From contig OX597816.1 of assembly GCA_951406725.2 (NCBI GenBank), forward strand, positions 97,340,001-97,404,000: a DNA stretch of 64,000 nucleotides. The letters are read 5' to 3'. Numbering within the stretch: the stretch's first letter is position 1; each line of letters begins with the position of its first letter. The position numbers and the translations under genes were made by a program. Below, piece after piece: positions 27,928 to 58,397 of the stretch. A model generated the notes under the pieces. It saw only the letters and a program-made list of their open reading frames with translations, was not told the DNA's origin and searched no databases. Source of the DNA: Octopus vulgaris. Lineage: Eukaryota.

Positions 27928-28304
27928 GTATATATATATGAATGTATGTATGCATGTCAGAATATCCTTCCTTGTACGTTGTTTATAAAAAGTATGATAA
28001 CATGTTCTCAACATGTAGGATAGATTTTAATTACTTGTATATTTATTGCAGTGTCAGAATATTTTTCCCCTTTTTGCATAGATTTTCTCAGGAATCTTGG
28101 ATAACTGTGAAGCCTCTTTATAAAACCAAACACATTTTCACTTGTATTTTTACTTATTTGTACTTATTCCTTCGGTTAAAACAGGAGTTCTCAACAAGTG
28201 TCCATATGGCCCTTGGAAGTCCATATAAGATTTTCTTGTTAAAATATATACGCAATAAATTGCTTATACATCTACATATTAGTTTTTGTTTTTATACAAT
28301 TTAT

Positions 28305-28525
28305 AACAAAAGCACGCAGAGAGCGCAAACCTCCGTCAAGACAACACCAAGGTCTTCTCAACGATTAGCCGGAATTGATTTTTAGAATGAGAATATTTGA
28401 AAGAAACTCGATTGCTCTCACAAACGAGAATACTAAAAATGAACCTGACCGCTCTCAAAAATTAATTAAAAAAAAAGAAAAAGCGGAAAAATAATCCAGA
28501 ATTGTCCGGTACCTGATCGATCCCA
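28305..28525 (-). mobile_element. Helentron-like non-autonomous element (HINE), 3' part
   Basis: Reverse-complement match to about 29640-29855. Confidence 0.7.
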
Positions 28526-29164
28526 ATGGTAGTCATGGAATGTGAAGTTGGGTGTACGGGCTATGTTTGTAATACTGTGTGTGTGACGTCTGCAGTGGCA
28601 AGAGAGAGAGTTTTCTCTATGATGGCCTTTTTTAGTCTATACACTGATATAGTGTTTTTTCGACCATTAAGATCTATAGCGAAAAATTTGTCCGTGCGTA
28701 AAAGAAACAGAAAGGACCTGCATATGGTTCTGTTAAAAGAGGTTTAAAAACATGGTTACGCACACAAACGTGAGTCCAAGCAGTAATGCTTCCTTCAAGG
28801 CCAAGCTAGAAATGCAATTGTTAAGTAGGTAAGAGGTTTTAAACAGGAGCGATATGTTCAAAATTGCTGAAACTAAACATTGCCGAGGATAAATAAAATT
28901 TATTATTGTTACTGAATATGTTAGTCTGTTTAATTTCTTAACAGTTTCGCTGACGTTTATTTATGTAGTTTGATTTCTTTATCCATTAGTTTCTACTAAG
29001 AGACGCGAGTATAATTAATAATAGAAGACAAAAAAAACTTTGGAAACAGCAACGCCGTCATAGCTTACGCGAAAACCATGAGCGTGCTTTCAAGGGAAAT
29101 AATCAGAGTAAGACTTGAAAGTCTGTAAGATCGTAATACTTCATGTAGAATAAAGTAAGTATAA

Positions 29165-29347
29165 CAAATAATCTAAAATCCTTGTTCGGTACTGGATCAA
29201 TCCTAAAATCTTATCAGTTCATGCCTGTCATGTGGCCAAACATCCCCGAAAGTTTCATCCGAATCCATCTAGCAGTTCTTGAGATATCCTGTACACGGAC
29301 AAACAAACACGACTGTAAGCAATACCTCCGCCTTAGCGATGGCGGAG
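29165..29347 (-). mobile_element. Helentron-like non-autonomous element (HINE), 5' part
   Basis: Reverse-complement match to about 29510-29680, including the acctccgcc/ggcggag palindrome. Confidence 0.7.
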
Positions 29348-29506
29348 AAAAGAATGTGTGATTATAAAAATACACTAGGATGTATTTTTATACGCATCGA
29401 ATGGCCATGGCTGTCTAGCAGAGTAAAATATGATTCGAAGCGATTTGGCGAACAATGGTTGGTTCCACTGGTTAAAACGAACGCTTATGTTAGAATGTAC
29501 TTCTAG

Positions 29507-29855
29507 TTACCTCCGCCTTGGCTAAGGCAGAGGTATTGGTTCCAGTGGTGCTTGTTTGTTTGTCCGTGGACAAGATATCTCAAGAACCGCTGGATGGATT
29601 CGGATGAAATTTCAGGGAACGAACTGATTAGATTTTGGGATCGATCCGGTAGGGGATAATGATTTTGGATTATTTTTCCTGATTTTTTTTTTACTTAATT
29701 TTAGAGAGCGGTGGGGTTCATTTTTAGCATTCTCATTTGAGAGACCAGTCAACTTTATTTCAGATATTCACAGTTTAAAAATGATCTCTGGCTAATCGTT
29801 GAGAGGATGTTGGTGTTGCCTTAGCGGAGGGTTGCGCTCTCTGAGCGCTCTTGTT
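29507..29855 (+). mobile_element. Complete Helentron-like non-autonomous element (HINE)
   Basis: 5' ttacctccgcc..ggcagaggta subterminal palindrome, (gttt)n tract, 3' gcggagg subTIR, terminal hairpin gcgctc-tct-gagcgc, T-rich ends. Confidence 0.78.
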
Positions 29856-30099
29856 TTATAATAATTCTCCTGTGAATAGATGTAATTAACTAATATAAGA
29901 TTTCTTGAAGTTAGTACTCTCAGTTGTGTCTGAATTTGCATTTATGAAATTCATGAATAATTGGTTGTGGTAAGAGCTTTGGAGTCCAATGATACAGATA
30001 CTTCTGCAATGTACAAAAATGTTACACATGTGCGTAAATACATATATACATATGTATATGTATATATATATATATACACACAAATATATATATATATAT

Positions 30100-30256: not shown

Positions 30257-30311
<55 letters not shown>

Positions 30312-30413
30312 GGAGTAAACACATAAATGTGAAACAAGGTGGAAAAAAGAGTACTCAAATACCAGTGGTAGAGTAATATGCTTTATTTTAAGCAGTAGAA
30401 AATTCAACAAAAT

Positions 30414-30451
30414 CTGTTACTCTGAGTTTCTCGTTGCCGTTCATCAGACAG
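30414..30451 (-). ncRNA. Minimal type I hammerhead ribozyme
   Basis: ctgt CTGATGA acg gcaa cga GAAA ctc a gag TA acag; core intact, near-palindromic stem III, stem II closing pair is an A-A mismatch. Confidence 0.8.
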
Positions 30452-30531
30452 TTTGTCTGATGAACGGCAACGAGAAACTCAGAGTATCAGATTTTGTTGA
30501 TGAACGGCAACGAGAAACTCAGAGTAACAGA
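30452..30531 (+). ncRNA. Tandem pair of minimal type I hammerhead motifs
   Basis: CTGATGA acggcaacga GAAA ctcagag TA at 30457-30486, repeated 40 nt later with a TTGATGA core. Confidence 0.7.
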
Positions 30532-30561
30532 TTTTGTTGAATTTTCTGCTGCTTAAAATAA

Positions 30562-30612
<51 letters not shown>

Positions 30613-31039
30613 AATCGATCTCCATACATATATGTGTATACGAACATGTGTGACCATACATACATGTCAGGTCATTTATGAGGCTCTCATAAGTGCTATT
30701 GGTAACATGGAATCCCTTACAACCTGTGGCATGGTCGGGTTTTCAGCGACTAAACCGGCAGCACCACCAGGCTACCCTGGTGAGGAGGATTGCTAGAAAC
30801 CCAGCAGGATTACTTACATACACACACACGCCCATATATATGTATATATATATATATATATAATAAATATTAGGGAATAAATCCAAATTTACAGGGAAAA
30901 AAAATCAGATTTAGGATTAAATCCAATTTTATAGTAAAATATTATATAATATTAATTAGAGACAAAACCACTATTTTGCAAAACAAACAAGGAAAGACTT
31001 AATCAATACATAAAATTTTAATAAAAAGTAAAAAAACCG

Positions 31040-31082
31040 CCACTACAATTGTTTCTTGTCCTGATCGACAATCTTCAGGTGG
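31040..31082 (-). ncRNA. Minimal type I hammerhead ribozyme, fully canonical core
   Basis: ccac CTGAAGA ttgtc gatcag gacaa GAAA caattg TA gtgg. Confidence 0.88.
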
Positions 31083-31142
31083 ATTTCCAATAAGTCAGTT
31101 TCAAATTATGAAGTCATAATTTGAAACTGACTTATTTGAAAT

Positions 31143-31185
31143 CCACCTGAAGATTGTCGATCAGGACAAGAAGCAATTGTAGTGG
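31143..31185 (+). ncRNA. Type I hammerhead copy with GAAA>GAAG substitution
   Basis: ccac CTGAAGA ttgtc gatcag gacaa GAAG caattg TA gtgg. Confidence 0.7.
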
Positions 31186-31269
31186 CGGTTGTTTTACTTT
31201 TTATTAAAATTTTATGTATTGATTAAGTCTTTCCTTGTTTGTTTTGCAAAATAGTGGTTTTGTCTCTAA

Positions 31270-31336
<67 letters not shown>

Positions 31337-31995
31337 TTATATATACATGTATGTGTGCGTGTATGTGTGTATGTGTGTGTGTAGGTATATGTATTGTTCA
31401 AAATAGTGTGATTCGGTTTCTGTGCTGCTTAAAGATTTCAAGTTCCTAACGAGGGTTTTCCTTAGATCGGTGAAATTTTTAATCAATATAAAGTTCAAGA
31501 TGGCTACCGGTAGATGGGCTGTAATTGATCAAGAAAGGACACGTGATGTCACGATATTAGGAAGCGACATCAGATATATGAGAAAAAAGGCCGCGTGTTT
31601 GGACAGAAAATTGGCGGCACCAGTGCGTCTGGGTGTATGGCTAAGAGAAAATGTAAGCATATGAACTTGTATGTATGTGATGTCGCGCATATGTGAGTGT
31701 CTGATTGTATGTGTTGTATGTATGAAATTGCGGGAATATACACGCATACGCGCGTGCAGTTGTGTGCGAGTGGTCCTACGTGTATGTGTGTGTATGTATG
31801 TGTTCGTATATATTTGTGTGTATGCTTGCGTGTATGCGCGTGTGCGTCCGTGTATGCGCGCGTGTGTGCATGTGTGTGTATGTGTGTGTATGTGTGTGTA
31901 TGCGTGTGTGTGCGTATTTTTACATATATGTGAGCGCGTTCTGCATGTGTGTGCTGTGCGTGTTTGCGAGCGTGTGTGCATGTGTTTGTGTGTGC

Positions 31996-32045
<50 letters not shown>

Positions 32046-32759
32046 TGGTGTAGGAATGCATATGCAAGGGATATATGTTTTCAGGTGGATTGGCATGATT
32101 GGTGTAGTGCTTATATGTACTGTGCGTTCGTTTGGTACGTGCGGGCGCACGTGCATTCATAAGTATATGTGTATGTATCTGTATTATGCACGCGAGTGCA
32201 GATGTACAAACACACACACACACGCGCACATATATATGAATATACATATATGCGTGCATCTGCACACACACACGCGAAACCACACACGCGCGCGCGCACA
32301 CAACGGACACAGACCTTCACACACTCACACACACACATATATATACATACCTCGGCGGCATGGGAGTGTATGGGTTGGGCGTGTGGGTGCTAGTAGGGGT
32401 AGCTGCATGCACATGGATGCCTGTGTGTGTGTTACTTGTGGTTGAGCGTGCATTTGCGCCTAATATATAGAGGCGGAATTATTGGTTTTGGGGGTTTTCT
32501 ACAAGTGCAAATGTATCAGGCTGCACCGATGTTGGGGATTAGTGGTTGGCAGTGCTGCGCATGGAGACTTGTGACTGTCTCCTTGGTGTTACTAATGCAG
32601 GAGGGCAGCTGGTAAGAATGTGGTATATCCAGGTTATCGGCGGCCAGTGGCTTGAAGTCTCCAGGATGGCATATCTCTGAGCATACACGGACGCACACGC
32701 GCATACACGCAAGCATACACACAAATATATACGAACACATAGATACACACACATCAATA

Positions 32760-50454: not shown

Positions 50455-52766
50455 GAAAAGATTCGAAAACGACATTTCCACAAAAAGCTTATTTGGCAAG
50501 AGCGTATTCAACTCCAAATTCAGTTACTCAGGTCTTACACAGAATGCTTAAAAAAACCTTAACTTTGACAAGAATATCAAACCAACAAAAATCCAAAACA
50601 TCAAAGCAAAAGTATAACATGAAGACTATACTTGACATCGATACTACCACAGGAACTATCAAGCGAAAGTATGTGCTGAAGCTGCCCGCACAAAGCATAG
50701 TATGAAAAATGCGTTAGACAACATGTTAGAAAATCACACAAAAAATTTTTTTCCACTAAGATAAGGAAAATACCAGTTACAGTAAAGTCTGTCCCATCAA
50801 AAGAAGAGGTGCAGGAATTTTGGAATTTAATTTAGGCAGAAAGAAAAAGCATATACTAAAAAGCTCTTGGATTGATAGAATATCTACTGACTTAGACTCT
50901 TTAGAAGAGCAAAAGTGGGAGGGTATCAATGTAGGGGATATAATATCTGCTTTCAGGAAGTCAAGCAAATGGAAGTGTCCAGGAAAGGATACAATTACTA
51001 ACTTCGGTTTGAATGCCTTCCCAGAGAGTCATGAACTGCTAACAAAAGTTTACAACAATGTTTTGCGACAACCTAGTACGATTCCCTCTTGGCTAGTGAG
51101 TGGTGTTACATTTCTACTTCCAAAAATGAAGAAACAAATGAACCAAAAGATTATAGAACCAAACCTACTAAACAGTAATGTATAAAATACTAGCATCTGT
51201 CTTCCCTGAATGCACCTATAGTTTTTAAATAGAAAGTGGCATCTTCCATAATGAGTAAAAAATGTTAACGTTGGTCCTATGGTAGTAAAGATCAGCTACT
51301 CATCAATAAGAGGATCTTGGAAGATTGTCACAAACAACACAAAATCTTGTCGACAGCCTGCATAGGCTATAAAAGGCTTCTAATAGTCTACCATATAATT
51401 GGATTGAGAAATGTCTGGAAATTTATAAAATAGCACATATTCTGTGAAACGTCTTGTCTGTAAGTATGGAATAATTGAGAGCCACTCTGAATTTGAATTG
51501 TGATTATGAATCTCTCTAAGAATGTCATGTAAGAATATCATGTGGCATTTTCCAGGGTGATTCCATATTAGACTCCTCTTTTGTCTAGTTTTAATACCTC
51601 CCTCGATATTGCTCGTTGATGTACAATATGGCTATACAAGAAAACATCATACTCAGTAAAAACAAGCAAAGAGATACCTAAATGAATTCCAAATACAAAA
51701 AGTCCCTGACGAAGATGTACTGGAAAACATGCACAGAAAAAGCTAAGCATATGAAGACCCGTGCTAAAACTGCTGCCTTAGATATTCTTATTGGTAAATG
51801 GCAAGAAAATGGCAAAGAGAGCTAATAATACCGGTGTTGAAAAAGCCCTTACTCATCAATGGTTAGTGTCTGCTGGCTTAAAATCAGAGACAGAACGGTT
51901 TATCATAGCAGCCCAAGATCAATGGCTACCTACAAGGAGCTACTAGGCCAACATATTAAAGAACGGTAGTTGCCCAACGTGTAGTGTATGTAAACAACAA
52001 AATGAAACCATCTATAATCTTGTTTCCATGGGCAGTCTTCTTGCGCCAACGAAGTTTCACAACAGGCACAATAGAGCAGTACAGTATATTCACTGGGTAA
52101 TTTGCAAAACCTTGGACCTGCCCCATGATAAAAACTGGTTGGAACACAAACCACCTCCAGTCCTTGAAAACGACAACATCTCACTCCTCTGGAACTTCAC
52201 CGTTCACATTGATAAAAAGATAGATGCGAATAGACTAGACATTGAAGGACTTCTGACAAAAATTATGCTTCCTCATTGATATGACAGTCCCAACTGAGAT
52301 AAATGTATATCAAGACCTACCAAAAACTGAGTAAGTATAAAGATCATGAAATAGAAATTGGAAAATGTTGAACCTCAAGACAAATACAATAGCTGTTGTC
52401 ATAGGAACCCTAGGAATGATAGCAAAAGGGGCTGATTGCTATTAGTTCAGATAACAGGAAATCCTAAAATAGCAGAGATTCTAAAAATAGTAGAGCTCAT
52501 GGAAATTGTCCATATCCTACGTAAATTACTGTCTATGTAAGCTTAAATTATAAGACAAACTTATAATTTTCTTGTGTTTTTTAAACATTCTCTAGAACAA
52601 TACTTTGTGCAAAACCAAGTTTATGGCATAATACCATAATACTAACCTGTCATAATACCAACTTGAACTACTAACTTGTCTCGTGAGGTCTCTCGGGGAG
52701 ACTTGGAGTCCAGTTATGCAAATACAAAGCAAAAGTCAAGCATATAATAATAATAATAATAATAAC

Positions 52767-54471: not shown

Positions 54472-58397
<3,926 letters not shown>

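What the first reader, a model, noticed from the sequence alone, without database searches (positions are those of the whole stretch)
30861..31276. Hairpin palindrome with a canonical hammerhead on one strand and a one-base variant on the other
Seen: about 163 bp arms with only a 2 nt loop. The minus strand at 31040-31082 reads ccac CUGAAGA uuguc-gaucag-gacaa GAAA caauug UA gugg, with every core base and stem intact; the plus-strand twin has GAAG. The ribozymes face outward, and the left arm extends about 90 bp further to the (TA)n. Inference: it arose by fold-back (self-primed) cDNA synthesis. A transcript from either strand would carry a ribozyme together with its own antisense, so hairpin formation competes with cleavage.
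Basis: partly seen in the sequence, partly recalled or inferred. Interest (0 to 1): 0.8.

Follow-up and report, generated by a model that had tools for sequence, protein, structure and literature searches.

The report
Folded-back Penelope retroelement stub
This 416-base palindrome with a hammerhead ribozyme motif on each strand is real, but it is most likely an ordinary, already described by-product left when a very abundant Penelope-like jumping gene inserted into a TA repeat, and its ribozymes are predicted to be silenced by the hairpin.

Summary
Observation confirmed: 163-nt arms (3 mismatches), a 2-nt loop, outward-facing type I hammerhead cores (right copy A15.1>G), an 88-nt extension on one side, and (TA)n on both flanks. 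The motif is the short-stem-III, dimer-type hammerhead of Penelope-like element (PLE) termini, not a full canonical one; Rfam gives no hammerhead hit. The unit belongs to a very abundant dispersed family: 20 of 24 listed runs, 11 studies, 5 organism labels, and 13,264 contigs on 286 bp in one run. Both arms share two minority variants, so they likely come from one template; GAAG is not listed as a family variant. A head-to-head inverted truncated copy, a one-sided tail and microsatellite targeting are the published PLE insertion anatomy. Self-priming was proposed in 2013 and nearby opposite-strand hammerheads were noted in 2014. A second, unrelated palindrome of the same build lies about 300 bp upstream. 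In read-through transcripts the antisense arm is made first and predicted hammerhead pairing is 0.000, so the locus is likely inert. The parent RT–endonuclease gene was not found (no genome held), and long reads were not available. Verdict: new member of a known kind; low interest.

The parts
30861..31113 (-). Direct (longer) copy: about 253 nt of the family's terminal unit, 5' end at the hairpin tip, carrying the hammerhead, an AT-rich 3' part and the tail
   Evidence: covered along its length by contigs of other copies in 4 of 4 runs laid (X7 only up to about 31100)
31040..31082 (-). Type I hammerhead, PLE-type: stem I 4 bp, full core, stem II 5 bp (U-A at 10.1-11.1), 2-bp stem III with palindromic loop; predicted cut after 31044
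   Evidence: two copies co-fold with the double hammerhead as MFE; cleavage untested
30861..30948 (-). One-sided 3' extension ('tail'), about 88 nt, with an imperfect about-40-nt internal repeat and an AT-rich tract at its junction with the arm
   Evidence: (D11); contigs cross the arm-tail junction in X1 and X7, and (TA)n-like loose ends before 30943 mark tail-less ends
31112..31113 (.). 2-nt loop at the fold-back junction, near the place where family coverage ends and where two other joints begin their inverted arm
31114..31276 (+). Inverted, tail-less copy (163 nt); the three arm differences appear to lie in this copy
   Evidence: no family variant listed at the three left-arm positions
31143..31185 (+). 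Hammerhead twin with A15.1>G (31173), predicted impaired
   Evidence: PMC3088659 passage on 15.1/16.1 mutants
30834..30870 (.). (AT)n tract on the left, likely half of the target microsatellite
31273..31345 (.). (AT)n tract on the right, likely the other half of the target; a target-site duplication cannot be read inside it

Best explanation
The palindrome is a head-to-head pair of copies of one abundant repeat unit set in a (TA)n tract, most likely a short dead-end insertion of a Penelope-like retroelement's terminal repeat whose new cDNA folded back and copied itself. Shown: the anatomy, the family's abundance, the tail being colinear with the arm in other copies, and the two minority variants shared by both arms. 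Inferred steps: (1) an element-encoded GIY-YIG endonuclease nicked the (TA)n target; (2) reverse transcription began at an internal start site (the tail end, about 30861) on an RNA whose 5' end lay about 30 nt upstream of the hammerhead; (3) after about 250 nt the enzyme ran off that end (about 31110-31113), the cDNA 3' end snapped back and was extended on itself; (4) the second arm was joined to the other target end at the internal AT-rich tract (about 30943-30949 equivalent), so it lacks the tail; (5) three later or copying changes followed, one hitting A15.1. The hammerhead is simply the parent's pLTR motif copied twice. At this locus it is predicted inert, because read-through RNA would form a 163-bp duplex before the ribozyme can fold, and each strand has only one sense copy of a dimer-type ribozyme.
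For: Anatomy matches the published PLE insertion: adjacent inverted 5'-truncated copy, tail at one end only, microsatellite bias (PMC8557442 passages); head-to-head palindromes read as self-priming (PMC3846280); dual minimal hammerheads 100-700 bp apart on opposite strands (PMC4209133). Hammerhead type: two copies of the 43-mer co-fold with exactly the double-hammerhead structure as unconstrained MFE (-22.2 kcal/mol); a common family variant at 31050 (28% of depth in X1, 73% in X7, 56% in X9, 0 in X12) keeps stem III self-complementary through a G-U pair (my reading). Abundance: 20 of 24 listed runs hold the stretch, 11 studies, 5 organism labels; 13,264, 908, 93 and 152 contigs were laid in 4 of 4 runs. 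One template: at 31061 and 31084 the family majority differs from the window (C>T in 94-99.7% and T>C in 86-100% of depth, 4 of 4 runs), yet both window arms carry the minority letters. Two 3' ends: (TA)n-like loose ends before 30943 in 34 contigs of X1 and 1 of X9, while other contigs run from arm into tail; this fits two RT start sites bounding the tail (PMC11167929). Recurring 5' end: depth falls to 2% or less of the hammerhead-region value by 31121 in all 4 runs, no shared continuation is among the loose ends shown, two X1 joints start their inverted arm at the mirror of 31110 and 31109, and one X9 contig with a different indel runs 8 nt past the loop. Silencing: predicted stem I and II pairing is 0.000 in read-through RNA of either strand. 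Routine: a second palindrome of the same build and unrelated sequence lies at 30310-30563.
Against: The parent RT + GIY-YIG ORF was not seen: no genome is held, no PLE ORF was found in the window (motif scan; 1 of 16 ORFs scanned hit Pfam, an RVT_1 about 25 kb away), and none of four short sequence motifs was found in the one PLE supplement searched. The tail is about 88 nt against the published 30-40 bp. No strand-change joints were listed among the contigs laid, although many fold-back copies might be expected to give some; only two single-contig 'skip' joints appeared. The energy gain on dimerising is not unusual (69 of 300 shuffles did as well), so only the shape of the MFE supports the dimer reading. 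The fall in depth near the tip could also come from subfamily divergence below 85% identity; 106 loose ends were not shown and the tool warns that depth is no copy number. No contig spans the locus or bridges the tip by 31 letters on both sides. The 2013 paper argued that head-to-head palindromes need an antisense template; cDNA snap-back on a sense template is my geometric alternative, untested.
Confidence: 0.58

Rival explanations
1. Same element, different chemistry: both target strands were nicked and each primed a cDNA (one from the tail start site, one from the tail-less start site) on RNA of the same source copy; the two cDNAs ran to the RNA 5' end and were joined head to head.
For: Purified PAc cleaves and extends both target strands, starts RT at two sites bounding the tail and is modelled as a dimer (PMC11167929). 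The right arm ends at a preferred tail-less end of the family. The asymmetric X1 joints (30983 to 31115, 31001 to 31116) fit one arm stopping early.
Against: Two like-sense cDNAs cannot pair and would need end joining. Both arms share two minority variants, which needs both RNAs from one source. The near-perfect 2-nt junction is simplest as a snap-back, and the asymmetric joints also fit a snap-back with a large loop.
Confidence: 0.24
2. A self-propagating non-autonomous mini-element: the 250-nt unit or the whole palindrome is transcribed from its own tip promoter and mobilised in trans, SINE-like, with the hammerhead processing its RNA.
For: Very high abundance with apparently sharp ends at about 30861 and 31110, and no shared upstream continuation among the loose ends shown. 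An initiator-like TCA lies at 31111-31109 on the minus strand (read from the sequence; consensus recalled). PLE-derived non-autonomous elements exist (bioRxiv 10.64898/2026.07.22.740005).
Against: Sharp ends also follow from RT starting internally near the 5' end of a normal PLE transcript. Depth beyond 31121 is 0.5% or less of the hammerhead-region depth in 4 of 4 runs, so this exact palindrome is not the family's usual form. The ribozyme is predicted blocked in palindrome transcripts.
Confidence: 0.1
3. A solo unit was made palindromic later by DNA repair or replication slippage, or two insertions were homogenised by conversion.
For: A short hairpin at the tip could seed it (tip DNA folds at -3.0 to -5.6 kcal/mol once 8-10 nt of the second arm are present). 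Shared variants fit conversion too.
Against: The inverted arm stops at the element's own tail-less end and takes no flank. The same build recurs in an unrelated family 300 bp away.
Confidence: 0.04
4. Assembly or amplification chimera.
For: Palindromes between microsatellites are hard to assemble; no laid piece spans the locus.
Against: The arms differ at 3 sites, both ends fall on family ends, the flanks are not mirrored, an X9 contig runs 8 nt past the loop, and a second such structure is adjacent.
Confidence: 0.04

Closest known systems
Insertion units of canonical endonuclease-positive Penelope-like elements (Penelope/Poseidon, Neptune, Nematis, Hydra): pLTR, adjacent inverted 5'-truncated pLTR and one-sided tail, e.g. 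Pen2a_Av (PMC3846280; PMC8557442 Fig. 2 legend)
   Same: Head-to-head inverted copy with a palindromic junction, shorter inverted arm, extension at one end only, AT-rich or microsatellite target, hammerhead in the repeat, self-priming proposed.
   Different: No ORF in this copy and the parent was not identified; tail about 88 nt rather than 30-40 bp; the family seems dominated by short stubs with a recurring 5' end (weak evidence); clade not assigned.
PLE hammerheads with small palindromic helix III (PMC4209133; review PMC6765202)
   Same: Type I, short helix I (4 bp), palindromic 15.2-16.2 region, predicted dimer, opposite-strand pairs already reported 100-700 bp apart.
   Different: U-A instead of G-C at 10.1-11.1, no bulged base before helix II, helix II 5 bp; activity untested.
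Non-LTR retrozymes (bioRxiv 10.64898/2026.07.22.740005)
   Same: Short, non-coding, type I hammerhead, likely PLE-derived.
   Different: Retrozymes are head-to-tail tandems; this is a single head-to-head pair, and no end-to-start joint was listed in 4 runs.
Naiad PLEs (PMC8557442)
   Same: (TA)n target, inverted copy, tail.
   Different: Naiads lack complete hammerheads; this unit has a full core with three stems.

Membership tests
Canonical EN+ Penelope-like element (insertion stub) | Parent ORF with telomerase-like RT and GIY-YIG endonuclease | not testable with these tools
   No genome held; no eukaryote DNA collection; none found in the window; contigs laid are too short to reach an ORF
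Canonical EN+ Penelope-like element (insertion stub) | Type I hammerhead with small palindromic stem III in the terminal repeat | tested here: met
   (motif and predicted dimer; cleavage not assayed)
Canonical EN+ Penelope-like element (insertion stub) | Inverted, shorter copy directly adjacent at the 5' end (head to head) | tested here: met
Canonical EN+ Penelope-like element (insertion stub) | 30-40 bp tail at one end only | tested here: inconclusive
   One-sided extension present, and tailed and tail-less ends both occur in the family, but it is about 88 nt with an internal about-40-nt repeat
Canonical EN+ Penelope-like element (insertion stub) | Dispersed multi-copy family with AT-rich or microsatellite targets | tested here: met
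   only one locus in the 64-kb window
Canonical EN+ Penelope-like element (insertion stub) | Target-site duplication | not testable with these tools
   Both flanks are (TA)n, and no empty allele was available
Non-LTR retrozyme | Head-to-tail tandem units each with a hammerhead | tested here: not met
   No tandem array at this place; no end-to-start joint listed in 4 runs, though contigs show presence, not absence
Naiad PLE | Lack of a complete hammerhead motif | tested here: not met
   Full core and three stems present
Rfam hammerhead families | Score at or above the gathering threshold | tested here: not met
   0 matches at gathering score; no hammerhead family among 32 matches at E up to 10
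MITE / fold-back DNA element | Symmetric terminal inverted repeats reaching both ends | tested here: not met
   88-nt family-specific extension on one side only; family coverage is of the single arm plus tail

The most novel reading that the evidence does not exclude
The 250-nt hammerhead unit has broken free of its parent and spreads as a SINE-like mini-Penelope with its own tip promoter and a long tail. Its fold-back copies would then seed the genome with many perfect 100-160-bp RNA hairpins that shut off the ribozyme and feed RNA editing or small-RNA silencing of the family: a built-in self-limiting switch.
Probability: 0.1. Interest if true: 0.55.

Novelty: new member of a known kind. Interest (0 to 1): 0.15.

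Why it matters
As it stands it matters little: it is one more example of a described PLE insertion structure, and probably inert. Its modest value is as data on an open question. How PLEs make tandem and inverted ends is stated to be unresolved (PMC8557442). A genome with very many short stubs whose arms can be phased by private variants would let one count one-template against two-template junctions and map the RNA 5' end and the two start sites without a bench assay.

Tried and rejected
Own genome: not held, so no copy census and no parent search. Rfam: 0 at gathering score; the 32 matches at E up to 10 are mostly miRNA hairpin models, all below their thresholds, and reflect the perfect hairpin and the microsatellites; rejected. 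A 22-nt pattern scan gave 0 hits in metagenome contigs, 0 in viral contigs and 1 in prokaryote genomes (L001); L001 is a 23-nt match in 63% GC DNA with no further likeness, rejected as chance. Monomer folding gave no significant z-scores (0.03-0.41 and -0.31). Dimer energy gain was matched by 69 of 300 shuffles and is not used as evidence. No RNA holder listed; X12 is only guessed to be RNA, so nothing is concluded on expression. Depth steps down across about 31011-31040 in X7 (about 6-fold) and X12 (about 5-fold, more further on), less in X1 and not lastingly in X9. This is near the predicted cut site, but a variable poly-A tract lies there and contig depth cannot show ends, so it is left as a lead. 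All three arm differences seem to lie on the right arm (chance 1 in 4 for either arm) and only one is A>G, so no editing signal is claimed. No long open frame in the unit. Four short motifs were not found in the one supplement file of PMC8557442. The supplement of PMC13282606 was listed, not read, and Repbase/Dfam libraries could not be searched, so the family may already be catalogued. The paper on PLE hammerheads cleaving as dimers (Lunse et al.) was not held; only its title and a review's summary were seen. The host was not identified; a cephalopod-like animal is a guess from recall of microsatellite-rich genomes and comes from no call.

Full report
Observation. The sequence holds an inverted repeat with arms 30949-31111 and 31114-31276, 163 nt each, a 2-nt loop and three mismatches, at 31088/31137, 31052/31173 and 31034/31191. 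The left arm continues 88 nt to an (AT)n tract, and the right arm ends in another. The minus strand 31082-31040 carries every hammerhead core base (C3 at 31078, A15.1 at 31052, H17 at 31044); the plus-strand twin has G at 15.1. A relaxed type I scan gave 3 hits in the window against 0.07 per shuffled window (30 block-shuffles), and all 3 lie in the only two short-loop palindromes found. The unit has no other copy in the 64 kb.

What kind of hammerhead. It is not a full canonical one. Rfam gave no match at gathering score and no hammerhead among 32 weak matches. Stem I has 4 bp, stem II 5 bp closed by U-A, and stem III 2 bp with a palindromic loop. As a monomer the hammerhead fold (-5.5 kcal/mol) is not the MFE (-6.6), but two copies co-fold, unconstrained, into exactly the double hammerhead (-22.2). 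The energy gain itself is ordinary (69 of 300 shuffles as good), so only the shape counts. This is the form described in PLE terminal repeats, which showed low activity in vitro and no detectable cleavage for the single minimal motif tested (PMC4209133, parts 1-2 of 4 read; review PMC6765202, passages). Mutants at 15.1/16.1 are reported at least 10-fold less active (PMC3088659, passages), so the GAAG twin is likely impaired.

The family. No genome is held, so I used public runs. Of 24 listed, 20 hold the stretch, from 11 studies and 5 organism labels; the best holder may be the source. I laid 4 of these 20 on 30861-31146 (arm, tail, tip and 33 nt of the right arm): 13,264, 908, 93 and 152 contigs fitted. 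Five results follow, all. (a) Contigs cross from arm into tail in X1 and X7, so the tail belongs to the unit, while (TA)n-like loose ends before 30943 (34 contigs in X1, 1 in X9) mark tail-less ends like the right arm's. (b) At 31061 and 31084 the family majority differs from the window (94-99.7% and 86-100% of depth in 4 of 4 runs), and both window arms carry the minority letters, so the arms most likely come from one template; later conversion is not excluded. (c) No variant at 3% or more is listed at 31034, 31052 or 31088, so the three differences, GAAG included, appear private to the right arm. (d) Depth falls over 31081-31120 (X1: 73, 40, 14 and 2% of the 31071-31080 value; X7 reaches 0 by 31101). 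No shared upstream continuation is among the loose ends shown (106 were not shown). Two single-contig joints in X1 (30983 to 31115, 31001 to 31116) start an inverted arm at the mirror of 31110 and 31109, and one X9 contig with a different indel pattern runs 8 nt past the loop. Together these point to a recurring 5' end near the tip, about 30 nt upstream of stem I. This is a moderate inference: depth is no copy number and subfamily divergence could mimic the fall. (e) Against expectation, no strand-change joints were listed, and no piece spans the locus or bridges the tip by 31 letters.

Mechanism. Published work gives the frame. PLE insertions are 5'-truncated, often have an inverted truncated copy directly adjacent at the 5' end, carry a 30-40 bp tail at one end and favour microsatellites (PMC8557442, passages; PMC8969392, passages). 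Head-to-head palindromes were read as self-priming (PMC3846280, parts 1-4 of 5 read). Opposite-strand hammerhead pairs 100-700 bp apart were noted. Purified PAc nicks AT-rich DNA, extends both strands and starts RT internally at two sites bounding the tail, about 111-118 nt into the ORF; its hammerhead needed protein to cleave and was not needed for insertion (PMC11167929, parts 1-2 of 4 read). In D. virilis Penelope the transcript starts 46 bp before a 75-bp intron (PMC2377424, passages) whose end abuts helix I, so a spliced RNA 5' end a few tens of bases before the hammerhead has precedent. I infer that RT began at the tail site on an RNA starting near 31110, ran off after about 250 nt, snapped back, copied itself to the internal AT-rich tract and was joined to the (TA)n target. 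That yields this geometry from a sense template; the 2013 paper instead invoked an antisense template. Priming from both target strands is the main rival. I put PLE-stub identity at about 0.85, and snap-back specifically at about 0.58.

Function at this locus. The whole palindrome folds at -262 and -259.5 kcal/mol. Because the ribozymes face outward, a read-through transcript makes the antisense arm first; predicted pairing of stems I and II is 0.000 on both strands. Even a transcript starting at the tip gives stem II only 0.09-0.17 and stem I under 0.02 as a monomer. Each strand has one sense ribozyme, so no dimer forms in cis. The locus is predicted inert as a ribozyme; if transcribed it would be double-stranded RNA. 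Expression was not testable (no RNA holder listed).

How ordinary. A second palindrome of the same build sits at 30310-30563 between (TA)n tracts: outward hammerhead-like cores, a 3-nt loop, a tail of about 70 nt on one side, and no sequence likeness to the first beyond 9-10 nt. Two earlier AI notes of this scan on other genomes reached the same reading; they are not independent support and I did not test them.

Membership and novelty. Hammerhead type, inverted adjacent copy, dispersal and target are met. Tail length is atypical. The parent RT-endonuclease ORF and the target-site duplication could not be tested. Retrozyme (tandem), Naiad (no hammerhead) and MITE (symmetric ends) definitions are not met; for retrozymes I read parts 1-2 of 5 of bioRxiv 10.64898/2026.07.22.740005. 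I did not find this family described. The searches were (listings), passages of an octopus repeat paper with 0 mentions of hammerhead or ribozyme (PMC13282606) and one supplement. Repeat libraries and unread supplements may already hold it, and the host was not identified. Verdict: a new member of a known kind, interest 0.15. The boldest reading left open is a self-propagating, self-silencing mini-element, at about 0.1.

Noticed in passing
window 30310-30563: Second fold-back palindrome between (TA)n tracts, unrelated in sequence: arms 30404-30450 / 30454-30500 (loop 3 nt), continuing as 30381-30446 / 30498-30563 because the right arm has a 40-bp tandem duplication; hammerhead-like core on the minus strand at 30447 (stem II only 2 bp, near-palindromic stem III); about 70-nt one-sided tail.
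   Followed up: partly
window 31011-31040 (depth table): Family depth steps down near the predicted cut site in X7 and X12 but not lastingly in X9; could reflect copies made from cleaved RNA, or just the variable poly-A tract.
   Followed up: no
window 31111-31109, minus strand: Initiator-like TCA at the recurring 5' end of the family; the two X1 joints begin their inverted arm at these positions (within 2 letters).
   Followed up: partly
window 28302-29858: Nested inverted repeats that look like MITE-type DNA elements: outer arms 28302-28502 / 29662-29858 (about 82%), inner arms 29245-29347 / 29511-29617 (86-89%).
   Followed up: no
window 31784-31857 and 32681-32754: 74-nt inverted repeat, 99% complementary, made of degenerate GT/CA microsatellite sequence, 823 nt apart; unexplained.
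   Followed up: no
window about 54764-57053 (+): Broken LINE-like retrotransposon; the frame at 56355 hits Pfam RVT_1 at E 1.4e-4, below the curated cut-off; similar-looking remnants at about 50760-52279.
   Followed up: partly
L001 5000-5022: 23-nt exact match to the hammerhead region in a Sphingomonas MAG with no further likeness; taken as chance.
   Followed up: yes
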